DNA of 63,820 nucleotides, counting the filler, from Reclinomonas americana ATCC 50394 (lineage: Eukaryota): NCBI GenBank assembly GCA_048213135.1. It is 12 parts of 12 records of this genome, joined end to end, with 100 filler letters (N's around TTAATTAATTAA, not from the genome) between each part and the next. Parts side by side here need not be neighbours in the genome. Positions count along the whole stretch, not along the records: positions 1 to 15,905 come from PS015980.1; 11 more parts are not named here. One strand, given 5' to 3'. Both the position numbers and the translations under genes were made by a program. How positions within the stretch are numbered: the first letter of the stretch is position 1; each line of letters begins with the position of its first letter. Positions 3,409 to 23,437 of the stretch are shown here, piece by piece. The notes under the pieces were generated by a model. It saw only the letters and a list, made by a program, of their open reading frames with translations, had not been told where the DNA came from and made no database searches.

Positions 3409-6400
3409 CTTCCCTTCTCTTCCCTTGTCCTTACCCGACACGTTGGTCTCTCTTCGTCACTCACTCTCTCCCACCCTTCTCTCTCTTTCCCTCTCACCCC
3501 ATCTATCTCTCTCCCATCACGCAACCCAGCACTGCCGAATCAGACTGCGAACGTCCTCCGGCACAGCTGCCCGCACTTCATCGTCGTCCAGGTCACCAGG
3601 TGAAGCGCCTGCTTTCATGAGATCTCCGATTTTCATCAACGCCACTCCACTGAATGGCTCGCGGCGAGTGGCGATAAACCAGAGCAGCGAACCGAGTCCA
3701 TACACATCTGCTCGTTCATCATACTGCGAGTGGCGAATGGCAAATAAGTGAACATCGCTCTCACGGGGCACAGCGAGAATAGAGAATGACATCTATGCAC
3801 CTGCTGTTCCAACATGGCCTCTGGCGCAGCATACGCCGCCGTTCCGTGATTCGATTGCATCTTGCCGAGTGTGCCGTGAATCTTGGCCTCACCAAAGTCA
3901 CACACCTTGGCCACGAGTCGGTCCTCGCTGATGAGAATGTCTGCGGACATTTAGGGAGGAGGTAAGTGACTCGGACAGGGGCGACATGCAATCGGGGAAG
4001 GAGAGCAGGATAAGAAGCTTGGTTGACAACGAAGTTGCTCTCACTTCCCAGCTGAGTCACATTCTTCCTCAGAAGAGCAAACGACAGAGAGAGCTGGAAA
4101 AACTCGCCGAATAACTCGAACGGAATATCCACCTTCCTCGCTTGACGGAATCTGAGTTATCTCTCTCGCTCACTCAGATCGCCTTTCTCCATCTTCAGGT
4201 CACCCTCCGTGACACGCAACTCTGCGGCTTGAGATCACGATGCACAACTCGACGCGAGTGCATGTACACCACCGCCGATACCACTTGCAAGAGCAGGCTG
4301 AGCAGGTGTTGTGTCGTCGTGTGCTCATCCTTCACAAGGTCGTGCAGTGTCTCGGCGTTGCCTCGCTCTCCTTCTTGACCGACATACTCGAGAACGAGAC
4401 CGAGGCCACTCGGATCGTCGTTGCACACGGCCATCAGTTTCACAATGTGTGAGTGACTGTGCGCGCAGGCACATGAGTGACGGCGGTCAGCATTCGGGTG
4501 AGGTTAAGGCGAATGCACGCAACTCGAGCTGCATCAGTAGTGAATGCTCGTTCTCGAAGCAATCTCGAATGCGTCTCCAGTCAGCAGACTGCGCATCACG
4601 TGCCTGCTGCCTGACAAAGTAGCGCTTGTACGCCACAGTCTGCGAGTCGCCACAGAGTCGGAGAGTGGCGTGGAAGACGGCATTCTGGCCTGCGAATGTA
4701 GGTTTATATGAGACGAGCCTAGACTACTGCAAGTAAGAGCGAAAATCTCACCATTACCGATCTGTTTTGATGACAGTTCAAGCTCCGTGAAAGGCACAAC
4801 AGGAGCGCGGATGGCGAATCTCGCTGCTCTCTCCGTCACTATCTCGGCCGTCACATTGATGCGACACACATCTGCGCGCGAGGAGAACGAGATGAGAGAA
4901 TGAAGACGTATCAAATGGCATGAGCAGTCGCAACTCTCGTATGCTTGGAACAGCAGACGAATACTCTCGTGCTGTCCGTCGGGGAACAGTGTGTGGAGCG
5001 AGTCACGCACCAGTCGCATGACGCTCACGTACTCGGCGTCCTCGAGTGCAGATAGACGGGCCAGGTGAGACACGCGGTGGCGCACATCCCTCAAGCTCTC
5101 CACGGCTCGAATCTACGAAGGAGAGAATCCAGTGAGAAGAATAGGAACGCATACTGATGTCTGCACAAGTTGAAAGAAGAAAACACCAACAGAAAGGACA
5201 GTGTAGAACTCCCCGTTCCTTCCCTCTCCTCCTTCTTTCGTTCCCCTCTAATGCTGCCCTCCCTCCTTCACTCTTGCGTCTTCTTGTCCTCCCTCCTCTC
5301 CCCCACACCTTGGCTTCGTCAGCAAGCAAGCGGACGGCCAGCCGGTCTTCGTTCGTGACAGGATCGAGACGGACGCGACTCTCCAGCAGATCCTCGTCAC
5401 GACAAGCGGCGGCAGGAACAAAAGTAATGTACAAGAGCAGAGTGCTCAGCAGCGACACATCCATGCCCATTGTCACTCCACTCCGCTTGAATGTGCGAAT
5501 GGCTTCGCGGTTGGAAGGGAACAATTCGACAGAGCGCATGCGAATGTTGCCGCGCTTGTCCAGAGTCATTCGGCAGTATCTGAGATGCAGAATGAGTGGA
5601 GATGGCACAGCGCAGCTCGACAACATATCGAGCACCTCGGCGGTGGAGCTGGGAGGCAGAGTTGCTCAATGTCGAACTCGCCAGGAAAGAAGTCAGCAAC
5701 AAGTTGCTGCAGGAGGGAGCCGAGAGCCAGGGGAATGATCTCGTGCACGACTTCGGTGAGCATCAAGATTGGACGGCGGTCGCTGTGGCATTCGAGAGAG
5801 AAATGAGGAAGAAAGTCGTGCGCACGAGGCAGAGCACCTGCCATCAGGAACCTGAGAAAATCCATGTGGAAGAGGGTGCGAAGCTGGCCTTCCATCTCAT
5901 CCACCCTCCGTCGCAGCTGATCCCGTTCGTTGGCAAGATCCGCAAGCTGCTCACGAAGAGTATTCCTCTCGTCGGCGGCGACACGCTCAGCATCAGCGAG
6001 AGCTTGTTGGAGCTGACTGCGTTCGGCCGTGAGCGACTCAACATCAGCTTGGGTGGTGGTCAGTTCTTCAGTGAGCGAATGATATTCGGCAGAGATGGCC
6101 CTGACGGTGGCCTGAGATGCGGCAAATGACTCGGCGAGTTGGTCACGCTCCGCAGTGACATTGGCTGTGGAGAGTGAAGTGAGGAACGCAAGTCGGATCA
6201 CGAGCAGAAACAAAACATCAGCTGGCGAAACAACGAACCGAGGGCACGCTCATTGTCAGCCAGCTGGGTGGAGATTCGATCCCGCTCGGACTGCAACTGG
6301 GCATTCTTCTGGTGCTCTTCGACCTTGCTCAGTTGCAACTGGGCGACAACGTCTTCGTGCTCACGTCGCTGTCGATCCCATTCCCGCTGCTGCTGCTGCC

Positions 6401-7393
6401 GCTCCTGCTGCGATGCAGCAAGATCGCGCTGGAGTTGCGCAAGGAGTGCGTCCTTGTCGGCGAGCGTGCGTGCGACGGTGGGATCATCAACAGCCGACTG
6501 CAGTTTACGAGAGTGCGAGGGAGACACGGAACGGATGTGAGAAGTGAGTTTCACGAGCAACAAGAAGCAGAGAGTGGCACTCTCCGTCTCACCTGGCGTA
6601 CTGGCACTGCGTATTCGCCAGGAATGACACAGAAGGACAAACACAGATGGTGGAGCATGAGCACGAACACAGCATATGCCAACAGACATAATGGAGGGCA
6701 TAATACCTGCAGGAGGCGGGGATCGCGGCTGCTGTTGTTGCTGTTGGCGTGGTGGTGCTGGTTGCGCAGCGAGGCGGTCGAGCAAGTCGGCAACTTGCTG
6801 GTTGCCGTTGTCACGTGCCCACTGAGCCGCTGTTTTGCCCCGCTTGTTGACCATGGGAATGAGGTCGGGGAAGCCAGTGGCGAGGAGTTGCACAATGGCT
6901 TCGTGGCCTTCCCGGGCAGCATAATGCAGTGCAGTGGACTGCGGATACTCCGCACGGTCATTGGTGACGGCCCGCACCATCTCCGGCGGACATCGTCGCT
7001 CATCGGCAAGCAACCACTCCACCACTTGCAGATGCCCATTACGAGCAGCCCCCATCAGTGGCGTCCAGCCATAGTCGTTGACCATTTGTGCGAGTTCCGG
7101 ACCGACACCACTCTCCTCCCACAAATACTCCAACACAGAGTGGTGACCGCTGTTAGCGGCGAGGTGAAACGCCGAGCCGCCATTCAATCCCATCTCCTCT
7201 CTCTTCAGCAAAGTGCGTGCGCCCTCACGCGCCAGCAACTCGCGCAGTGCCTTCACATCGCCATTCGCCGCCATCTCATATGCTTTCTTCCGAGGAGCAC
7301 TGCCACCAAAGAGGCAAAAGCAGAAGCGCGAGTGAGAGAGAGATCTAGAGAGAATGCCACCTGACAACAACAGCAATGCACAGCACACCTCAT
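3207..7393 (-). CDS. Ankyrin repeats - coiled coil - HEPN-like domain - protein kinase (TKL-like), multi-exon
   Basis: Spliced in frame from ATGAG|GT (7393): MSAPRKKAYEM; ANK motifs (GWTPLMGAARNGH, STALHYAAREGH); heptad coiled coil; MDVSLLSTLLL...VESLRDVRHRVSH (Rx4H at 5065-5082); kinase IGNGQN, VAYK, HRDLKPQN, CDFG, GTAAYAAPE, DVYGLG, IRQCW; stop at 3207. Confidence 0.85.
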
Positions 7394-7740
7394 TTTCTTT
7401 GATCCAGTGATTAGGGGAAGCAGCAACAACTCTCTCTCTCTCTCTCTTTCTGCCTCGCGCTGCGCCTTCTCTTCACACTCCGTCCGTGTTCTCGTTATTC
7501 CGCGTGTCCTGCTTTGTTGCGCAGCGGACACACGCACTACTGGCTGCGACGTCGCTCGCGAGAGGGAGAGAATGTGGAGCTGGGAAGGCAAATGCACACT
7601 GAATCAGCCCATGACTGCTGACAATGATTCGTGCCTGTGCAAGCAAACATCTACGCTTCATTTGCAGGCCGCCTCACGGAACACCAACGCCAGTGTGTTC
7701 CTCTCATGCCTATTTTGACTCATTCTCACTTCCATTCATC

Positions 7741-10700
7741 TCAGAGTTCCATCGTAAACTGCCCACATGCGTCGCGCAGTGCACGCATCACATCGAGCAC
7801 TTCCTGCGATGTCGGTCGTCTCGATTGCAAGCTCATGCAGCGCAAGCCGAGTTCGAACATGGGTTCGGCTATGCGCGGCGTCCACTCTGCTCCTCTGTCC
7901 ACCAATTCCATGGGGCGCAGCGAGGCAGGCGAGTCGTCCCATTCCACCGACCACTCCACCACAGTGGCCACGGGCTTGGCAGTGACCAGCTGCACCAGCA
8001 CCACGCCCATGCTGTACACGTCGTGTTTGGGGTGTGGACGGCGCACACGCATTGCCAGTGGGTCCATGTAGCCCAGCGTGCCGGCGGCGGTCGTCGTCTG
8101 GGAGATGGGAGATAGTGAGAGAATGAGGGAAGAGAGAGGAATCGATGACAACAAACCTTGCCATCTGCAATCGACCGCGCAATGCCAAAGTCACCGAGAC
8201 ATGGCTCGAAACGGTGATCGAGAAGCACGTTGGAGGGTTTGATATCGCGGTGCACAACATCATTCTGTGAGCGGAAATAAGTGAGGCAAGGCACGATGTA
8301 TGAAACATGACAGCAAGGAGAGAATAAAGCCGAGTGGAGAGTAGAGTACACGAGAAGCAGCGGAGACATCAACAGCGAAGACTGACGAGGAGAAAGAAAG
8401 AGACGAGCACACACACAGTAAGGGAGCCTCCACAGGGAGAGGAAACGAAGCGAGGCGTCCACATCGGTTAGACCTTGTGCAAGAACGCCACGGCCTCGGC
8501 CAGTCCGAGAGCAATTTGCACACGCTGCACAACAGAGAGTGGTGCTCGACCGGCGCGCGGTAGCAGCAACAGATCCTCCAGGTTGGGAACTCTGTGTGCT
8601 TTCACAGTGAGACGATGATGGATGAGAGGAAGGAGAGGAGGGAGATGGAAAACGCACTGCAGAGCCTTGTACACGAGACAGCGTGCCTTGTCGTCGCCCA
8701 CCGAGAAGCCGACAAGAGGCACAATGCGACGATCACGCAGGCGTCCGAGGGTGGCCACCTGTGAGAAGAGGGAAGAAGAATGAGGAGAGAGAGAAGAAAC
8801 AGGAGAGGGAGAGAAACACGAACCTCGCTCTCAAAGGACTCCATCGTCCATGGTGCCTCGGGATCGAGCACCTTGATGGCCACGTGCATCTCACGAAGCA
8901 GAGTGATGAACACGGCACCCTGACCACCCTCACCGACCTTGAGGCGGGGTGAGAATGAGTCGGTGGCTTGCACAATCTCGGACCACTCAAAGCGCTGCAC
9001 GGCGGTGTCGACTGTCGAAAGAGGAGATGAGAGGTGACAAATGAGTGAGAATGAAAGGACATTGAACACTGATATGAAGAAAGAAAGAGGACAAGAGACT
9101 GACCTTGGGTGAGGAGGAGATCCTGTCGCAGCTGGGAGACGAGTTGATTGCTTTCGTGCAGCTCTGCGGTAAGGTCGTCCTTGTCACGCAGGGCCTCAGT
9201 CAGCTGAGCGGTGATTTGATCTCGCTCTGCTTTCAGTTGGGAAATCTCTTGCTCATCCTCAGCATGAGCTCGCTGCCAGTCAGCGTTGGCTCGCTGCAAA
9301 TGCGCACTTCGTTGTTGCACTTCAGATAGACCACGTCGTAGCTCTGCGTTCGCAAGCTGCAGCTCCGTCCGCTGACGGTCGAACTCTCGCTTCTGCTGCT
9401 CTCGCTCCTGCTGTGACGCCACGAGATCGCGCTGAAGTTGGGTGACGAGCGCTTCTCTCTCGGCGAGATGGCGTGCCAACGCAGGATCATCACCAACCAC
9501 CTGCACAGGAGCCCGATGTGACACGAGAGAGCAAGTTGTGCATAGAGTGAACTCCATGATCGGTACTGACGCGGAGACTGTCGATCTCAGTCTCACCTGG
9601 CGTGCTGGCGCTACAAGTATCGCGGAGCAATACACAACGACACAGTATACGGTTGAGTGAGAGCAGGAATAACATGGATCACACAAGTTAACGGACAGGG
9701 AGACCACACCTGCTGGACGAAGAGGCTTTTCCATCAGAGGCTGTTGTCGTGGTGGCGATGGTTCCAAAGCGAGGCGATCGAGCAACTCGGCGACCTGAAC
9801 ATGTCCTCTTCCACGTGCCCACTGAGCCGCGGTCTTGCCCTTCTTGTTGACGACGGGAATAAGGTCGGGATAGCGAGTGGCGAGGAGTCGCACAATAGCT
9901 TCGTGGCCATTCTTGGCAGAGACATGAAGTGCAGTGGACTGTGGAAACATGTCACGGTCATCGGTAACCGCCCGCACCGTCTCTGGCGGACATCGTCGCT
10001 TGTCGGCTAGCAACCACTGCACCACTTGCAGATGGCCAAAGCAAGCGGCCCCAATCAACGGTGTTTGCCCATAGTCGTTGGCCAACTGCGCGAGTTGCGG
10101 TCCAATGCCAGTCTCCTCCCACAAGTACACCAGCACGGAGAGACGGCCCTGATGAGCGCCACATACAAATGCAGAGCGACCGTACTTATCCATCTCCTCT
10201 CTCTTCAGCAGCGTCTGCGCACCCTCGCGGGTCACTAATTCGCGCAGCGCCACCACATCTCCTTCTGTTGCCATCTCCCATGCTTTCTTTTGTCGGCGCT
10301 GCCTTGCAGCACTGCAACTAAGAAGTGCGGTGTGGTTTTAGAGGCCTAAAAAAATTAACAGTGAGTCGATGTGAAACTCGAACAAAATCTCACCTGTCGA
10401 TCGCACGGTGTGCTACTGCGAGTGTCTGTGGTCGAGCCGACGAACCGTGAATTTTTTTCAAGACAAATGACGCATGCGCACACGACGTGAGTGCCAAAGA
10501 CACGTGCCAACTCCGGTGAACCGGTACAACTACGTCTCACCCGTTGTACTGCGCATAAGGCACAACAAAAGAGCGAAGAATAAATTAGTCGACTTGTCAG
10601 TTATACAATCACCAAAGCACGAAAAACCAACAAAACTTGATGGCGGAGTAGGGGGAACAAGAACGCGACGTGACGGTGGTTGCAAAGCGAGGCGATCGAG

Positions 10701-11328
10701 TAAATCGGCCACTTTCCGTTTGTTATTGCTGCGTGCCAACCTGAGCTGCTGTCTTGCCCATCTTGTTGACCATGGGAATGAGGTCGGGGAAACGAGTGGC
10801 GAGGAGTCGCACAACGGCTTCGTGGCCTTCCATGGCAGCATAATGCAGTGCAGTTGACTGTGGATTGTCGTGGTCACTGGAGACCGCCCGCACCATCTCC
10901 GGCGGACATCGTCGCTCATCGGCAAACAACCACTCCACCACTTGCAGTTGCCCATTGTTGGCAGCAGTCAGCAGTGGCGTAAAGCCAATGTCGTCGACCA
11001 TGTGTGCGAGTAACGGCCCGACACCACTCTCCGCCCACAAATACTCCAACACAGAGAGATGACCTTGAAGAGCGGCACAGTCGAAAACAGAGCAGCCATA
11101 CTCATCCATCTCCTCTCTCTTCAGCAGTGTTTGTGCGCCCTCACGCGCCACCAATTTGCGCAGTGCCTTCACATCGCCTTCCTCTGCCATCTCCCATGCC
11201 TTCTTCCGTCGGGAGCGGGGAACACTGTGAACAACGCAAACACATGACGAATGACAATCACGACGAATGTGAGCATGCATTCTGACAATAACCCATCCTG
11301 AAATAGACACTCCTGCAACACACCTCAT
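7741..11328 (-). CDS. Double ankyrin module - coiled coil - IRAK/Pelle(RLK)-like kinase; one apparent +1 frameshift at ~10740
   Basis: Two ANK exons (~10640-11225, ~9710-10310) joinable through two small exons. Kinase: RFEWSEIVQATDSFSPRLKVGEGGQGAVF, VAIK, HRDIKPSNVLLD, DFG, GTLGYMDP, DVYSMGVVLVQLVT. Extra G in CAG-G-TTG relative to the paralogs. Confidence 0.85.
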
Positions 11329-11848
11329 GTTCTCGATTCCAACACAATAACGGCAATGGCTCGCACAACCAACTTTATCGCTGCCGATCTAGCAGCACAC
11401 TCGCAGCTCCTCCTCTTCCCAGCGCTTGCGGTTTGCGTATGAATTGGAGAGTTTTTCCGTGTCCTTGACGCGTAAATGCGACAAAATGGACGACGTCGTC
11501 ATTTTGTGACGTCGGATGCTTGCAAAGCCCCCAAACTGAAGCATCGTTTCACTTGGTGACGCGAGACGCACCACGTCCACCCAGGAGATCTCGAGAACAC
11601 TTCAACTGTCAAAGAGTGTGCCAGCAACGATGGTTAGCACACCTTCTAGCTCCGAAACTCGCAACGCGCCTGTTGCAGGTGCGCCCATTCTACGTATCAG
11701 GCACGCATGCTCATGATGGCCATCACGCGCCATGCCAACGCATCAACACTCGATGTCGGACTGTGCACTCTGATCGCGAAGTTGAATCATTCAAACGCTG
11801 AACACCCAGCAGCATGACTGCCATTGGTCATTCTCACTTACATTCATC

Positions 11849-14800
11849 TCACAGTTCCAGCGTAAACTGTCCACAAGCCTCGCGGAGTGCACGCATCATA
11901 TCGAGCACCTCCTCCGCCGTCGGTCGCTTCGATTGCACACTCATGCATCGCATGCCAAGCTCAAACATCGGTTCCGCGATGCGCGGCGTCCACTCTGCTC
12001 CTCCATCCACCAAATCCATCGCGCGCAGCGAGGCAGGCGAGTCGTCCCACTCCACGGACCACTCCACCACGGCGGCGACGGGCTTGCCAGTGACCAGCTG
12101 CACCAGCACCACACCCACGCTGTACACATCGTGCTTGGGCTGTGGACGACGCACACGCATCGCCAGTGGGTCCATGTAGTCCAGCGTGCCGGCGGCGGTC
12201 GTGGTCTGTGAGGTGAGAGAAGGTGAGACAGCGTAGAAGAGAGAAGGAGAATGGAGCAAACAAACCTTGCCATCGGCAATCGACCGTGCAATGCCAAAAT
12301 CACCGAGACAAGGCTCCAGGCGGTGATCGAGAAGCACATTGGAGGGCTTGATGTCGCGGTGCACCACCTCATTCTGCGAGCGGAGGTAAGGCGAGGCACG
12401 GCGCATGAAACCGCAACTGGAGGGCATGTGGAGAACGCATAACGCTTGCAGTGACAAAACAGCAAAAGAGTGACAAGGAGAGAAGAGAGAATACGAGCAA
12501 CAGAAGAGAGCAAAAGTGAGCAAGAGGGAGAATGAGCGGGAGAGAAGAGTGCGGAGGTGGAGTGCACGAGAGACAGAGAGAAGTAACACAAAAAGAGTGA
12601 CAAGGAGAGAAGTAAGATAGAGTGCACCCACAAAGAGCAAGAAAAAGGAGTGAGGAAGGACAACGCGAGAAACTAGGAGATGCAAGACGAACAGCCGAGT
12701 GAAAAAGGACAGAAGAGCGAAGAACGCAATGGCATCGTGCACCAGTGACTGACTCAGAGGGTCAGCCACATTGCACAAACCTTGTGCAAGAACACCACGG
12801 CCTCGGCCAATCCGAGACCAATCTGCACGCGCTGTATGACAGAGAGTGGTGCATGACCGGCACGCGGAAGTAGCAGCAGATCCTCCAGGTTGGGAACTCT
12901 GTGTGCATTCACAGTGAGACAATGATTGAGAAAGGGAGAAAGAGAGAAATGGACACGCACTGCAGGGCCTTGTAAACGAGACAGCATGTCTTCTCGACAC
13001 CCACCGAATAACCTACAAGAGGCACAATTCGACGATCGCGCAGGCGTCCGAGGGTGGCCACCTGCGAGGATGAAATGAATGATGAGGAGAAAGAAGAAAC
13101 AGGAGAGGGAGAGAGACACAGACCTCACTCTCGAACGACTCCATCGTCCACGGAGCGTCGGGATCGAGCACCTTGATGGCCACGTGCATCTCACGAAGCA
13201 GGGTGATGAACACGGCACCCTGGCCGCCCTCGCCGACCTTGAGGCGCGGTGAGAAGGTGTCGGTGGCTTGCACAATCTCGGGCCACTCGAAACGCTGGAC
13301 GGCGGTGTCGACTGTGGAGAGCGTGATGGGGAAGAGAGAAATGGTGAGAAAGAAGGACAAAAAGCACCGAAAGGTAGAGACGGCAAGACATATACCTTGA
13401 ATAAGGAGGAGGTCCTGTCGCAGCTGGGAGACGAGTTGATTGCTTGCTTGCAGCTGCGTGGTGAGATCGTCTTTCTCAAGCAGAGCTGCAGTCAGTTGAG
13501 AGGCAATTTGATCCCTCTCGGCTCGGAGTTGGGCATTCCTCTGCTGTTCCTCGGCCACGCTGTGCTGCAGCTCCGCGTTGGCTTGCTGACATTCAGTGAC
13601 TGCCCACTGCAGTCGCGCGATCTCCTGCTGCCGGTCACCATGAGCTTGCTGCAACTCAGCATTGGCTTGCTGCACATAGGCGACAATGGCCTCGTTCTCC
13701 CGTCGCTGTCGATCCCAAGCTCGCTGCTGCTCCTCTCGCTCAAGCTGCGCTGCCGCAAGCTCGCGCTGGAGTTGGGCGACGAGAGCATCCTTCTCGCCGA
13801 GCTGGCGTGCCAATGCGGCGAGATCATCACCAACAGCCTGCAACTGAAACCAGCGTGCCCACAAACNNNNNNNNNNNNNNNNNNNNNNNNNNNNNNNNNN
13901 NNNNNNNNNNNNNNNNNNNNNNNNNNNNNNNNNNNNNNNNNNNNNNNNNNNNNNNNNNNNNNNNNNNNNNNNNNNNNNNNNNNNNNNNNNNNNNNNNNNN
14001 NNNNNNNNNNNNNNNNNNNNNNNNNNNNNNNNNNNNNNNNNNNNNNNNNNNNNNNNNNNNNNNNNNNNNNNNNNNNNNNNNNNNNNNNNNNNNNNNNNNN
14101 NNNNNNNNNNNNNNNNNNNNNNNNNNNNNNNNNNNNNNNNNNNNNNNNNNNNNNNNNNNNNNNNNNNNNNNNNNNNNNNNNNNNNNNNNNNNNNNNNNNN
14201 NNNNNNNNNNNNNNNNNNNNNNNNNNNNNNNNNNNNNNNNNNNNNNNNNNNNNNNNNNNNNNNNNNNNNNNNNNNNNNNNNNNNNNNNNNNNNNNGGCAA
14301 TATGCAAGGCAGTGGATTGGCCATCAGTGACTGCCCGCACCATTGCCGACGGGCAGCGTTGCTCCTCGGCAAGCAACCATTCCACCACCTCCACTTGCCC
14401 ATTGAAGGACGCTTCCATCAGCGGGGTTACGCGATTATCAGTGACCGCGAGTGCAAGTTGTGGCCCGACGCCACTCTCCGCCCACAAGTATTGCAACATA
14501 GCGAGATGGCCACCGGAAGCGGCATTGGAGAAAGCCGTACCACCACCACTGTCCATCTCATCTCTCTTCAACAGACTCTCCGCGCCCTCACGTGACACCA
14601 ACTCGCGCAGTGCCTCCACATTGCCACTCGCCGCCATCTCCCATGCCTGCATCCTTTGCTGTTGCCTGTGATATAAACAGAACGGGAACACCGCTGTCAG
14701 CAATCACCACAACAAAACATGTGACAGACCTTGACAAACACACCTCGGTTGTTCTGGATAACGAGAGAGGTGTGAGCAGGGCAAGCAAAAGTATGAAAAA

Positions 14801-15444
14801 AGCACAACACGCACCCAGCGGCGCAGCCAGGCGATCGAGCAACTCAGCCACTTGCTCCTTGCCATTCGAGCGTGCCGTCTGCGCCGCCGTCTTGCCCTCC
14901 TTATCGGTCATCGCAATGAGATCCGGGTAACAGGAGGCAAGAAGAAAAACAATGACTTCGTGGCCTTCGTCGGCTGCACAGTGCAGAGCAGTGGACTGCG
15001 GAAAGTCGTCGCCATCATTCGAGACAATGCGCACCATCTCCGGCGGACACCGTCGCTCATCGTCGAGCAACCACTCCACCACATGCAAATGTCCATTGTA
15101 GGCGGCCTCCATCAGAGGCGACCATCCGTGCATGTCGACCATTTGTGCGAGTTGTGGCCCGACTCCACTCTCCTCCCACAGATACTCCAACACCGACAAG
15201 TGGCCGCGTTCAACAGCACAGCAGAATGCAGAGTTGCCGTACTTGTTCATCTCCTCTCTCCTCAGCAGAGTGTGGGCGCCCTCGCGTGCCACCAACTCGC
15301 GCAGTGCCTGCACATTGCCCTCAGCTGCCATCTCCCATGCTTTCTTCTTCCTCTTGCGACGAGAACTGCGCGCGGGACAAAGAAGTGGATGTGTGAGAGT
15401 GCTGATGATGAATCCGCAGTGGTGTGAAGCACAACGTGCCTCAT
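11849..15444 (-). CDS. Double ankyrin module - coiled coil - IRAK/Pelle(RLK)-like kinase (paralog; gap at 13867-14296)
   Basis: ANK exons ~14815-15365 and 14297-14665 joined in frame by a 10-nt exon (14744-14753). Kinase exons are near-identical to those at 7741-9010 (GEGGQG, HRDIKPSN, DFG, GTLDYMDP). First intron predicted as GC-AG. Confidence 0.85.
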
Positions 15445-15764: not shown

Positions 15765-16705
15765 GCAGCAGCAGGTTCCTTGTGTGTGTGTGTTCGACCT
15801 CGGAGCTCCGAACAAGTCGAGCAACAACAACAACAACAACGTTAACAACAACACAACAACAACAACAACTTTACTAATCCAAACAGCAACACAGCTGCAT
15901 GATGANNNNNNNNNNNNNNNNNNNNNNNNNNNNNNNNNNNNNNNNNNNNTTAATTAATTAANNNNNNNNNNNNNNNNNNNNNNNNNNNNNNNNNNNNNNN
16001 NNNNNTGTGTTTGCAAGCTTGGTAGAACGAGGCAGAGTGTGAGTTATGCAGGTGGGAAGAGGGTCATCCGTGGATGTAGAAAGCCAAGACGAGGCGGAGA
16101 ACACACAATTTCCGAAGTTGAAATCGCACGAAACCGGCGTTGCTGGTATTGCGCACGCGCGCTTTCGCGGAGCAATGTTGGGGAAAGACGCACGCTCGGG
16201 AAAAGGGCGAAAGAACGTAGTCAGGGGTGAACTGATGGAGTGGAAGGAGGAAACGCGAAGAGGAGAGGGCGAAGGCGAAGACGTCGAAGAAGATGAGGAG
16301 AAACGAAAGGCTGCCATTGACTGGTGGCAATTGAGGCTGACGGTTGAGCATCTCTCGCCCAGTGAGCAGCACAATGTTGTTGGTGTCCTCGCCTGTCATG
16401 AAGCCGCTGGGATCGATATCGCATGCGCAGACAACACGAGAAATCGAAATCGAACAAATTGGAGGCGAGGACAAAATCTTCTCCTCCTCTCTGCTTGCGG
16501 TCGCATGCCGCACAATGTGCATGGATTATCTTTCATTCAAACCCGTTGAAGCTGTGAGCTGAAGGGGGCTTCAAGTTTCACAGTGTCCATTGTCCACAGC
16601 GAGCAACCCGCGCGCGCGCTTTTCATTTTTTTCGTCGTTTGCCCCCCACTTGAACCTGCGTGTGTGAGGAGAGTGAGAGAGAGTGTGTGTCTCTTGTGTG
16701 TGAGT

Positions 16706-17342
16706 ATGACGCATCGCTGGCAAGGTGTTGGCAGTGGAGTGCTCATCTGGGATGGGCTCATTGCGGTGGACTCGTTTGGCGCGGTTTTGAGAGGAGAGTT
16801 GGCGGGGACGCGCGCCTACTTTCTCACACATGTGCATGCTGGTGAGAGAGAGGGGGGAAGGGGAAGAGAGCAGAGAGATGAGAGGGGAAAGAGAGATGAG
16901 AGAGCGTGTGTGTGAGCTCATGACAACTCTCTCATGACTCTCACTCACTCTCACACACGCGCGCATCTGTCTCTCTCACACACATCCACACACGCACTGT
17001 CGCTCTCTCTCTCTCCCCATCACACACATCACGCATGTGTCAGTTGCGTCATCAATTTCACTCTCTCTCATTGATCATTGATCATTCATCAATCATCAGA
17101 TCATTACACTGGAATGCGACGCGACTGGAACGGTGGGAAGATCTACTGTACGCAGACGAGCATGGACTTGTTGCGATTGCGGTTTCCGTTGCCTGTGGAC
17201 ATGTTTGTTGCGTGGGCGAGTGAGTGGAGAGAGTGGNNNNNNNNNNNNNNNNNNNNNNNNNNNNNNNNNNNNNNNNNNNNTTAATTAATTAANNNNNNNN
17301 NNNNNNNNNNNNNNNNNNNNNNNNNNNNNNNNNNNNAGGGAG

Positions 17343-22559: not shown

Positions 22560-23437
22560 AGAGAGTAGAGAGAGAGAGAGAGACACACACACACACACAC
22601 ACACACACGAGAGAGAGAGAGAGAGAGAGAGNNNNNNNNNNNNNNNNNNNNNNNNNNNNNNNNNNNNNNNNNNNNTTAATTAATTAANNNNNNNNNNNNN
22701 NNNNNNNNNNNNNNNNNNNNNNNNNNNNNNNGAGAGAGAGAGAGAAGAGGTTTACGACGTCTCGCGACATGGTCGCTACAGACACACAGTGGGAGGTAGC
22801 GAAGGTGATGTGGTGTGCGTGCGTGGATTGACCACCGCCGAGTTGTTTCGAGCGAGGAAAGGGACAGCAGGGACAAGGGCCTGGAAAGCAGCTTCTCTCT
22901 GTCTCCGCCAGCTCTCACTCGCGGTCGCTCACGTCCGCAACACGAAGCTTCTCTTACCCGCTTCTTTCTCGCAAACAAACATCGAGGTTTAGACTCTTCC
23001 TCCCTTCCTGCTTCTCACCCTCGTACACACGCACAAACGCACGGAATGCTCTGCCTTCTCGCGCTCACTGCTCTTTCCTCTCTTCTCTCCCTCTCTCTCT
23101 CACACACACGCACACGCACACACTCTCCCTGCTCGTCATCAGCAAGTTGCATCTCTTGCCTAAAACTCGCCAAGCATCGTGAGAGGGACAGCAAGCGAGA
23201 CATTCCAGAAACGCAGAGTACTCAGCGCACGCGCGTGCGTGTGCTAGAGAGAGAGACTGAGTTTCGCTACGCTTCCTCCTGCTCTCCGTCTCTCCCGTCT
23301 TCTCTCTCCCTTTCTATTCTCACTCACACGCACACACTAATTGTAACACCACACAGTCTCTCAGTCGCTCTCTTCTCTCTCCCTCCCTCCCTCTCTCCCT
23401 CCATCCCTTCTCCCTCCCTTCTGCCCCATCACTCAAC

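What the first reader, a model, noticed from the sequence alone, without database searches (positions are those of the whole stretch)
6710..15365. Five ankyrin modules vary mainly at ligand-binding positions (natural DARPin-like repertoire)
Seen: the scaffold is strongly conserved across five copies (ALRELVAREGA.TLLKREEM; LEYLW.ESGVGP.LA; VVEWLL.DERRCPPEMVRAV; QSTALH), while beta-turn and helix-1 residues differ in every copy: GLNGGSAFHLAANSG / DKYGRSAFVCGAHQG / DEYGCSVFDCAALQG / DSGGGTAFSNAASGG / NKYGNSAFCCAVERG, and DYGWTPLMGAARNG / DYGQTPLIGAACFG / DIGFTPLLTAANNG / DNRVTPLMEASFNG / MHGWSPLMEAAYNG. Established: these positions form the concave binding face and are the ones randomised in DARPins. 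The two Pelle kinases are almost unchanged. Inference: diversifying selection on a non-self recognition surface.
Basis: partly seen in the sequence, partly recalled or inferred. Interest (0 to 1): 0.8.

Follow-up and report, generated by a model that had tools for sequence, protein, structure and literature searches.

The report
Ankyrin heads diversified at binding face
A protist contig carries five related copies of a small ankyrin-repeat domain, some joined to coiled-coil and kinase parts, and the copies differ mainly on the surface such domains use to grip partners, suggesting but not proving selection for different binding targets.

Summary
Five paralogous ~170-residue ankyrin heads lie head to tail on the minus strand of one contig (window 1-15905). 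Every quoted motif is present.

- **Variability:** it sits at the binding-face positions that DARPin libraries randomise. Mean pairwise difference is 0.61 in 25 such columns against 0.27 in 144 others (p=2.5e-6).
- **State of the copies:** module 3 has a 1-base frameshift and a neutrally evolving branch, so it is decayed. Module 4 is cut by an N gap. Module 5 is intact and under purifying selection, but has no tail of its own.
- **Kinases:** the two IRAK/Pelle/RLK-like kinases are 259/289 identical (omega 0.12), not "almost unchanged". Their dS (0.41) is a third of that of their heads (1.28).
- **Codon models (my own code):** about 12% of codons have omega about 3.4 (M1a/M2a LRT 15.75; 0 of 51 null simulations reached it). 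14 of the 19 candidate sites lie on published ANK binding positions. Outer-helix control positions give omega 0.35.
- **Weak points:** the a-priori DARPin set gives omega 1.29, not significantly above 1. Without module 3 the test only reaches p about 0.04.

Positive diversification of the binding face is moderately supported. "Non-self recognition" and "repertoire" (5 copies plus 1 EST) are untested.

The parts
14822..15331 (-). Ankyrin head M5. Intact 170-codon module (N-cap, three repeats, C-cap) that starts at an ATG. There is no coiled-coil or kinase of its own downstream; M4's ATG follows about 180 nt after the module ends.
   Evidence: tblastn; Pfam Ank_2 E=7e-20. AlphaFold model pLDDT 96.2, pTM 0.90. 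Scaffold-site omega on its own branch is 0.148, and omega=1 is rejected at p=6e-10.
14296..14637 (-). Ankyrin head M4. Only the first 114 codons are present; the rest is lost in the N gap 13867-14295. It is the head of gene A.
   Evidence: The gap length (429 N) fits the roughly 417 nt that separate the same points in gene B (reading).
13394..13837 (-). Gene A coiled-coil exon (core between peptide anchors; exact splice sites not determined).
   Evidence: 83/133 residues identical to gene B, with two 7-residue indels.
11852..13312 (-). Gene A kinase, five exon cores: 13121-13312, 12960-13061, 12781-12891, 12266-12373, 11852-12205. GxGxxG, VAIK, HRD and DFG motifs are all present.
   Evidence: Pfam Pkinase; exon cores. 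The closest solved structures to the gene B equivalents are SYMRK, BIK1, Pto, CERK1, IRAK4 and IRAK1.
10683..11190 (-). Ankyrin head M3, a decayed copy. A 1-base insertion near 10740 breaks the frame, and nothing resembling a coiled-coil exon follows.
   Evidence: DNA alignment; position of the insertion. Scaffold omega on its branch is 0.915 and omega=1 is not rejected, p=0.89.
9765..10274 (-). Ankyrin head M2, head of gene B.
9102..9500 (-). Gene B coiled-coil exon (core).
7744..9012 (-). Gene B kinase, five exon cores: 8821-9012, 8657-8758, 8474-8584, 8157-8264, 7744-8097.
6765..7274 (-). Ankyrin head M1, head of a third gene.
5569..6488 (-). Coiled-coil region after M1. It is longer than in genes A and B, and its first part is 42% identical to the gene B coiled coil.
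   Evidence: tblastn (6488-6177, E=7e-11); translation.
3522..4503 (-). A third, unrelated-looking kinase domain downstream on the same strand. Whether it belongs to the M1 gene is not known.
   Evidence: Pfam Pkinase on three fragments. Best solved relatives are CDK6, AMPK and RIPK1, not RLK/IRAK.

Best explanation
This is a small tandem family of cytosolic signalling proteins. Each has an N-terminal DARPin-sized ankyrin head (N-cap, three repeats, C-cap, with two family-specific conserved loops), a coiled coil, and in two genes an IRAK/Pelle/RLK-like kinase that looks catalytically competent.

The heads are old duplicates. Their fold-forming residues are kept by purifying selection. Their concave face (the beta-turn tips and the inner helix, repeat positions 2, 3, 5, 9/10, 13, 14) has been replaced faster than synonymous sites at roughly one codon in eight. 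The likely meaning is that each head has been selected to bind a different partner and brings it to a conserved coiled-coil and kinase output.

Shown here: the anatomy, the clustering of variation, the purifying selection on the scaffold, and a statistical signal for omega above 1. Inferred: that the face binds ligands, that the coiled coil oligomerises, and that the kinase signals. Whether the ligands are the cell's own proteins or foreign ones is open.
For: - **Copies and fold:** five copies; ANK Pfam hits; confident model, pLDDT 96.2, whose best solved look-alikes are N3C DARPins, TM 0.70-0.79. The repeat register was checked by HMMER alignment to a DARPin chain.
- **Variability at binding positions:** 0.61 against 0.27, p=2.5e-6.
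- **Fixed-partition codon model:** omega 1.29 for the 25 binding-face codons against 0.255 for the rest; LRT against one omega is 75.4.
- **Published ANK-N5C set** (positions 2, 3, 5, 10, 13, 33; passages of PMC4308713): omega 1.47, with omega=1 rejected at p=0.044. The union set gives 1.47, p=0.027.
- **Control:** 16 outer-helix positions (18, 21, 22, 25) give omega 0.35, the same as the background.
- **Site models:** M1a -1938.64 against M2a -1930.77, with 11.5% of codons at omega 3.4 (p=3.8e-4). M7/M8 LRT 30.6; M8a/M8 LRT 16.5.
- **Robustness:** stable over 3 topologies (LRT 14.6-15.75) and 4 codon-frequency models (LRT 11.9-15.75). It holds when the two halves get their own branch lengths (10.4 + 11.0).
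- **Null simulations under M1a:** 51 replicates, maximum 6.6, 3 of 51 at or above 5.99, 0 of 51 at or above 15.75.
- **Location of candidate sites:** of 19 sites with posterior above 0.5, 10 are in the DARPin set (Fisher 3e-5) and 14 in the union set (5e-9).
- **Scaffold constraint:** omega is 0.15-0.27 on the M1, M2, M4 and M5 branches, and all reject omega=1.
- **Kinases:** omega 0.12. Closest solved relatives are RLK/Pelle/IRAK kinases.
- **Expression:** a sixth, transcribed paralogue (P0085, an EST-derived protein that EukProt labels Reclinomonas americana) starts at the same Met and again differs at these positions.
Against: - The strictly a-priori DARPin set is not significantly above neutrality (omega 1.29, LRT 1.97, p=0.16). 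Its repeat 3+4 half has omega 0.75.
- The signal depends on sample size. Without M3 the LRT is 6.61 (p=0.037), without M4 it is 6.66 (p=0.036), and with M1, M2 and M5 only it is 2.2 (not significant). Without M3 and in two segments it is 4.7 + 6.0 (p=0.03, df 4).
- M3 is a decayed copy.
- Pairwise NG86 omega at these positions, using their own dS, is 0.44-0.83 in the 9 of 10 pairs that could be computed.
- The modules are mosaics: M1-M2 dS is 1.42, 0.58 and 0.46 along the module. Recombination can inflate site tests.
- Divergence is high, about 5.5 neutral substitutions per codon over the tree. A neutral site would also differ in most copies.
- The codon models are my own implementation, not PAML or HyPhy, and the posteriors are naive empirical Bayes.
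- These same positions are the highest-entropy positions of ankyrin repeats in general (PMC4308713 passages).
- There are no population data, no RNA data and no ligand.
Confidence: 0.55

Rival explanations
1. Ordinary paralogue drift. The concave-face residues are simply unconstrained (omega about 1) while the fold-forming residues are conserved, as in any ankyrin family. There is no adaptive diversification.
For: - The a-priori set has omega 1.29, not different from 1.
- Pairwise omega at these positions is below 1 with their own dS.
- Positions 2, 3, 5, 10 and 13 are the highest-entropy positions in natural ankyrin repeats (PMC4308713 passages).
- The signal falls to p about 0.04 or becomes non-significant with fewer sequences.
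- High divergence and mosaic history.
Against: - M2a and M8 fit significantly better than M1a and M8a, which already allow a neutral class.
- 0 of 51 simulations under that neutral-class model reached the observed LRT.
- The signal persists in both halves analysed separately and under four codon-frequency models.
- Outer-helix positions stay at omega 0.35, so the effect is not simply that of any helix-surface position.
Confidence: 0.3
2. One reading: an immune-type repertoire. The heads would be intracellular sensors of foreign proteins (from prey bacteria, symbionts or viruses) in an arms race, with the coiled-coil and IRAK-like kinase as the alarm output.
For: - Selection signal on the binding face.
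- The kinase is closest to the RLK/Pelle/IRAK kinases. Their central role in plant and animal innate immunity is established knowledge, recalled here.
- Precedent: ankyrin repeats of fungal NOD-like receptors show positive selection on the concave face (PMC4986451 passages).
- Other contigs in the window carry WD40 repeats with a highly conserved scaffold and a few variable positions, as in fungal NLR-type proteins.
Against: - Only 5 genomic copies plus 1 EST paralogue are known.
- The copies are old (pairwise dS 0.3-1.3) and the tree is star-like. That does not look like rapid birth-and-death turnover.
- There are no allelic data.
- No NOD, death, TIR or other immune signalling domain was hit in the ORFs of the three genes that were scanned.
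- The same statistical pattern is expected from neofunctionalisation towards different endogenous partners.
Confidence: 0.15
3. Artefact of a draft assembly. The frameshift, the gap and the apparent extra heads (M5, M3) would come from mis-assembly of fewer real genes, and the selection signal from misjoined or erroneous sequence.
For: - The window is a concatenation of contigs with many gaps.
- M4 is cut by a gap.
- M3's frameshift could be a sequencing error.
- The assembly broke inside WD40 repeats elsewhere in the window.
Against: - The five heads differ by 18-32% at the nucleotide level, so they are not collapsed or duplicated reads of one gene.
- Each has unique flanks.
- M3's branch is neutral on scaffold sites independently of the frameshift.
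- A separate EST-derived paralogue exists.
Confidence: 0.05

Closest known systems
Ankyrin-repeat domains of fungal NOD-like receptors (Dyrka et al. 2014, PMC4986451; passages read)
   Same: Natural ankyrin repeats in which the polymorphic and positively selected positions map to the concave surface (inner helices and beta-hairpin). They are read as a recognition surface.
   Different: In fungi the variation is between near-identical repeats within one protein, with repeat-number polymorphism and concerted evolution, behind a NACHT/NB-ARC domain. Here whole five-repeat heads are the diverging unit, and repeats within a head are not alike. No NOD domain was hit in the ORFs scanned. The output is a coiled coil plus a kinase.
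DARPins and the ANK-N5C library (synthetic; PMC4308713 passages; PMC8683736 passages; Binz et al. 2003 recalled)
   Same: Same size and fold: the best Foldseek matches are N3C DARPins (TM 0.70-0.79). The natural variable positions coincide with the randomised ones: 2, 3, 5, 13, 14 and also 10.
   Different: This is a natural family with few members. It has a 4-residue insertion after repeat 1. It also has a conserved insertion of about 10 residues (ERRCPPEMVRAV) between repeats 2 and 3 that is invariant rather than variable. Positions 2, 3 and 5 of repeats 3 and 4 are mostly conserved.
IRAK / Pelle / plant RLK-RLCK kinases
   Same: The kinase exons find SYMRK, BIK1, Pto, CERK1, FERONIA, BRI1, IRAK4 and IRAK1 as closest solved relatives. 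It is an RD kinase with all catalytic motifs (reading).
   Different: The N-terminal part is an ankyrin head plus a coiled coil, not a death domain or an extracellular receptor domain. E-values are modest (1e-5 to 1e-4 on single exons). No phylogeny was made, so family membership is not established.
Ankyrin-plus-kinase proteins such as ILK, TNNI3K, RIPK4/ANKK1, DAPK1 (recalled, not tested)
   Same: Ankyrin repeats and a kinase domain in one polypeptide, with the repeats used for partner recruitment.
   Different: They have different kinase families and domain orders. They are single conserved genes rather than a tandem family with diverging heads.

Membership tests
Ankyrin repeat domain | Matches ankyrin profile HMMs above the curated cut-off. 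| tested here: met
   Ank_2 E=1.9e-24 to 7e-15 in four heads, all above the 27.3-bit cut-off.
Ankyrin repeat domain | Stacked helix-turn-helix repeats with beta-turns (fold). | tested here: met
   AlphaFold2 model pLDDT 96.2, pTM 0.90, with paired helices per repeat. 500 or more Foldseek matches, led by DARPins.
RLK/Pelle/IRAK kinase family | Protein kinase domain with intact catalytic motifs. | tested here: met
   Pfam Pkinase. GEGGQG, VAIK, HRDIKPSN and DFG read in both genes.
RLK/Pelle/IRAK kinase family | Closest relatives are family members. | tested here: met
   For the C-lobe exon, all 46 PDB sequences at E<=1e-3 are plant RLK/RLCK or IRAK4 chains (the two entries titled only 'Protein kinase' I take, from recall, to be tomato Pto). 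For the N-lobe exon, 7 of 8 hits are LysM-RLK, CERK1, IRAK1 or a lectin-RLK; the eighth is a designed repeat protein.
RLK/Pelle/IRAK kinase family | Placement inside the family in a kinome phylogeny. | not tested
   No tree was built. Single-exon queries only; a search for longer relatives found none.
   Site models say yes (null simulations). The a-priori set gives omega 1.29, p=0.16. Without M3 the test gives p about 0.04.
   No genome is held and no sequencing runs were listed. Only 5 copies plus P0085 and the distant P0195 are known.
   No ligand is known.
Fungal-type NLR with highly conserved ANK repeats | NACHT or NB-ARC domain in the same protein. | tested here: not met
   No such Pfam hit in the ORFs of the three genes that were scanned.
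Fungal-type NLR with highly conserved ANK repeats | Repeats within one protein at least 85% alike. | tested here: not met
   Repeats within a head share only the generic ANK consensus (alignment). The similarity is between heads.
Variable-first-exon cluster (protocadherin / UGT1A type; recalled) | Several alternative 5' coding exons, each with its own start codon and splice donor, upstream of shared constant exons. | tested here: inconclusive
   M5/M4 and M3/M2 are pairs of head exons upstream of one coiled-coil and kinase tail. Each has an ATG, and M1, M2, M3 and M5 show a homologous phase-1 G|GT donor candidate; M4's lies in the N gap. M5 is under purifying selection.
Variable-first-exon cluster (protocadherin / UGT1A type; recalled) | Transcripts that join an upstream head to the constant exons. 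| not testable with these tools
   No RNA runs were listed. The one EST-derived protein ends inside the head.

The most novel reading that the evidence does not exclude
The locus would be a 'variable head, constant tail' receptor-kinase system in a free-living flagellate. Tandemly duplicated ankyrin 5' exon cassettes (M5 before M4, M3 before M2) would serve as alternative heads spliced onto one coiled-coil and IRAK-like kinase tail. Their binding faces would be driven apart by diversifying selection against foreign proteins. That would be an innate-immune-like sensor family outside plants, animals and fungi.
Probability: 0.12. Interest if true: 0.8.

Novelty: new variant of a known kind. Interest (0 to 1): 0.5.

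Why it matters
If the selection signal holds up, this is a natural case in which whole DARPin-sized ankyrin domains are diversified at the same positions that protein engineers randomise. Here they would be wired to an IRAK/Pelle-like kinase in a deep-branching protist; the nearest database relative is labelled as a jakobid.

That would bear on two questions. One is how old the pairing of variable repeat sensors with IRAK-type kinases is. The other is whether free-living bacterivores carry receptor families of the immune type.

It also gives a compact test system. Five heads on a 9-kb stretch could be expressed and screened for partners. If the signal does not hold up, this is an ordinary tandem gene family.

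Tried and rejected
- **Whole genome:** not held, so 'all genomic copies' could not be collected.
- **Homologue searches with the head:** the 'longer' search gave only generic ankyrin proteins at 25-38% identity (56 hits). The 'near' search gave 5 hits, only P0085 close. Of the best 150 in the representative library, only P0085 (66%) and P0195 (47%) are single-stretch family members; the rest are giant ankyrin proteins scoring through many repeats.
- **Kinase C-lobe exon, 'longer' search:** nothing.
- **Metagenome scan with the head alignment:** 1 locus at 28% identity, not used.
- **Earlier findings of this scan:** nothing by place, sequence or words.
- **Literature:** a search for Reclinomonas nuclear genome plus ankyrin listed nothing relevant (10 of 422 papers listed). 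I found no description of this family, but that is one search only.
- **Splicing models:** I first thought serial splicing of M5 into M4 was out of frame. A phase check showed that the best-looking acceptor (14665) is out of phase. One of six candidate acceptors (14693) is in phase and open, so neither serial nor alternative use can be excluded.
- **M1 and a Pelle-like kinase:** rejected. The kinase downstream (3522-4503) is closest to CDK, AMPK and RIPK1 and may be a separate gene.
- **Window context beyond 15905:** dropped as evidence, because the window is a concatenation of contigs.
- **Complex prediction for the coiled coil:** not run, because oligomerisation is a generic inference here.

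Full report
**What is there.** The window is a draft eukaryotic assembly. It holds 26 runs of N, and 22 of these form 11 linkers of the form N44-TTAATTAATTAA-N44. These are six-frame-stop spacers that join separate contigs. The finding lies within one contig (1-15905), which has one internal gap (13867-14295).

A tblastn search with one module finds five copies, all on the minus strand:
- M5 at 15331-14777
- M4 at 14637-14296
- M3 at 11190-10615
- M2 at 10274-9768
- M1 at 7274-6771

Each copy starts at an ATG preceded by about 20 conserved bases. Upstream of that there is no similarity. Pfam calls ankyrin repeats in all four heads that were scanned.

An AlphaFold2 model of M5, built with a seven-row alignment, is confident (pLDDT 96.2, pTM 0.90). 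It shows an N-cap, three repeats and a C-cap. Its best solved look-alikes are N3C DARPins with TM 0.70-0.79. A HMMER alignment to a DARPin chain fixes the repeat register I used.

**Gene structure.** M4 and M2 are each followed by an intron or introns, a coiled-coil exon and five kinase exons. The kinase has GxGxxG, VAIK, HRD and DFG motifs. Its closest solved relatives are SYMRK, BIK1, Pto, CERK1, FERONIA, BRI1, IRAK4 and IRAK1. 'Pelle-like' is therefore reasonable, though no phylogeny was made.

M1 is followed by a longer coiled coil. Further down there is a kinase domain of a different kind, closest to CDK6, AMPK and RIPK1, which may be another gene.

M5 and M3 have no tail of their own. 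They sit just upstream of M4 and M2 (M4's ATG follows about 180 nt after the end of the M5 module). They carry the head exon, a homologous phase-1 G|GT donor candidate and remnants of the first intron.

M3 has a 1-base insertion near 10740 that breaks the frame. On the 140 scaffold codons its branch evolves neutrally (omega 0.915; omega=1 not rejected, p=0.89). M5, M2, M4 and M1 have omega 0.148, 0.147, 0.265 and 0.216, and all reject omega=1. So M3 is decayed, while M5 is a functional coding exon whose use is unknown.

**The observation.** I took the DARPin-randomised positions as an a-priori set: 2, 3, 5, 13, 14 and 33 in repeats 1-4, plus 13 and 14 of the N-cap, 25 columns in all. The position numbers are recalled from Binz et al. 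2003; the one DARPin paper I opened (passages) does not list them.
- Mean pairwise difference is 0.612 in the set against 0.269 in the other 144 columns (p=2.5e-6).
- Invariant columns are 4/25 against 76/144.
- Adding the two outside relatives gives 0.666 against 0.335 (p=1e-6).

**Kinases.** Between genes A and B the kinase is 259/289 identical (dN 0.049, dS 0.413, omega 0.12). The coiled coil is 83/133 identical with two 7-residue indels (dS 0.81, omega 0.30). The heads of the same two genes have dS 1.28 and omega 0.23.

The difference in synonymous divergence between head and kinase is significant: 52/84 against 69/217 synonymous differences, Fisher p=3e-6. Introns between the kinase exons are 65% identical with many gaps, which fits the kinase dS.

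The heads are therefore older than the tails, or the tails were homogenised. Part of the 'variable head, constant kinase' contrast is age, not selection.

**Selection tests.** PAML and HyPhy are not installed, so I wrote a GY94 codon likelihood (F3x4) with M0, M1a, M2a, M7, M8, M8a, fixed-partition and branch models.
- The tree of the five heads is star-like. The six best of 15 topologies lie within 1.5 lnL units, and M0 omega is 0.35.
- The fixed partition gives omega 1.29 for the a-priori set against 0.255 for the rest (LRT 75.4). Omega=1 for the set is not rejected (LRT 1.97, p=0.16).
- A published natural-entropy-based set (2, 3, 5, 10, 13, 33; PMC4308713 passages) gives 1.47 (p=0.044). 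The union gives 1.47 (p=0.027). I found that paper only after I had the site-model results, so this set is not blind.
- Post hoc subsets: repeats 1+2 give 1.91; repeats 3+4 give 0.75; position 13 alone gives 6.2; position 10 alone gives 2.5.
- A control set of 16 outer-helix positions (18, 21, 22, 25) gives 0.35. Their solvent exposure is assumed from the ankyrin consensus, not measured on the model.
- Site models: M1a -1938.64 against M2a -1930.77 (LRT 15.75, p=3.8e-4; 11.5% of codons at omega 3.4). M7 -1945.84, M8 -1930.55, M8a -1938.81.
- Nineteen sites have posterior above 0.5. Eight are at or above 0.90: M5 residues 37, 41, 42, 70, 118, 121, 129 and 155. Ten of the 19 are in the DARPin set and 14 in the union set (Fisher 3e-5 and 5e-9). 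Ten lie in the inner helix of a repeat, at i and i+3/4 spacing.

**Robustness.**
- Other topologies give LRT 14.6-15.4. Columns with all five sequences give 11.96.
- F1x4, equal and F61 codon frequencies give 11.9-12.6.
- Two segments with their own branch lengths give 10.4 and 11.0. This matters because the modules are mosaics: M1-M2 dS is 1.42, 0.58 and 0.46 along the module, while M1-M3 is even at 0.34, 0.21 and 0.36.
- In 51 data sets simulated under the fitted M1a, the largest LRT was 6.6. Three of 51 reached 5.99 and none reached 15.75.

**Against.**
- Without M3 the LRT is 6.61 (p=0.037). Without M4 it is 6.66 (p=0.036). With M1, M2 and M5 alone it is 2.2.
- Without M3 and in segments it is 4.7 + 6.0 (p=0.03).
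- Pairwise NG86 omega at the set, with its own dS, is 0.44-0.83.
- The posteriors are naive empirical Bayes, and the code is mine.

**Relatives.** Only two family members turned up anywhere.
- P0085 is a 154-residue EST-derived protein that EukProt labels Reclinomonas americana. It is 61-76% identical to the five heads and starts at the same Met. Its C-terminal tail runs in another reading frame relative to the heads. It differs from the five heads at the same variable positions.
- P0195 comes from an unnamed assembly. It is 45-50% identical and has the same two insertions.

The window therefore probably comes from that jakobid or a close relative (inference). The family has at least six members.

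**Interpretation.** The best reading is a small tandem family of cytosolic proteins made of an ankyrin head, a coiled coil and a kinase. Their heads have been pushed apart at the binding face, while the scaffold and the kinase are conserved.

The alternative is adaptation of each paralogue to a different endogenous partner.

The closest precedent is positive selection on the concave face of ankyrin repeats in fungal NOD-like receptors (PMC4986451 passages). This family differs from that one in three ways: no NOD domain was hit in the ORFs scanned, the repeats within a protein are not near-identical, and the output is a kinase.

The arrangement of an intact, constrained head (M5) directly upstream of another head and one tail raises the possibility of alternative or serial head exons. 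In-phase splice combinations exist for both. No RNA evidence could be obtained.

Noticed in passing
window 15906-16005, 17237-17336, 22632-22731, 26706-26805, 29334-29433, 34890-34989, 38495-38594, 41734-41833, 53623-53722, 58165-58264, 62700-62799: Eleven identical 100-base spacers of the form N44-TTAATTAATTAA-N44 (stop codons in all six frames). The window is a chain of separate contigs, so order, orientation and neighbourhood across these points mean nothing. Many contig ends are GA/CT or CA dinucleotide repeats.
   Followed up: yes
window 25935-26705 and 26806-27819, minus strand (two contigs): WD40 proteins with at least 5 + 4 repeats of 42 residues. The repeats share a near-identical scaffold (LASGEEVRRLEGH..V.AVAVTPDGQHIVSGS.D.TVRVWS) and differ at a few positions; repeat DNA is 72-79% identical. 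On one contig the repeats follow a pentapeptide-repeat-like stretch. The assembly broke inside the repeats. This resembles the highly conserved WD repeats of fungal NLR-type proteins. No NACHT or NB-ARC domain was seen in the ORFs that were scanned.
   Followed up: partly
window 3522-4503, minus strand: A further protein kinase domain in at least three exons (HRDLKPQ, DFG, AAPE), closest to CDK6, AMPK and RIPK1 rather than to RLK/IRAK. It lies downstream of the M1 coiled coil on the same strand. Whether it is the same gene is unknown.
   Followed up: partly
window 9597-9710, 6593-6705, 10540-10640, 14744-14815 (minus strand): After each head exon there are two successive donor-like sites. In M1 and M2 they flank a possible 14-base mini-exon that keeps the frame (…PAG / xPxRQ / coiled coil). 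M3 and M5 keep degenerate versions of 8 and 10 bases. This rests on reading the sequence only, with no RNA support.
   Followed up: partly
window 7296-7310, 10296-10310, 11212-11226, 14659-14673, 15353-15367 (approximate; 22-35 nt upstream of each head ATG): Each head ATG is preceded by a pyrimidine-rich stretch ending in CAG, which looks like a 3' splice acceptor. This hints at a 5'-UTR intron or a leader exon.
   Followed up: no
window 35448-36071 (+), 40193-41683 (+), 55180-55731 (+): Other contigs carry fragments of a prolyl oligopeptidase (Peptidase_S9), a D123 family protein and an ELMO/CED-12 domain protein. These are ordinary eukaryotic genes.
   Followed up: no
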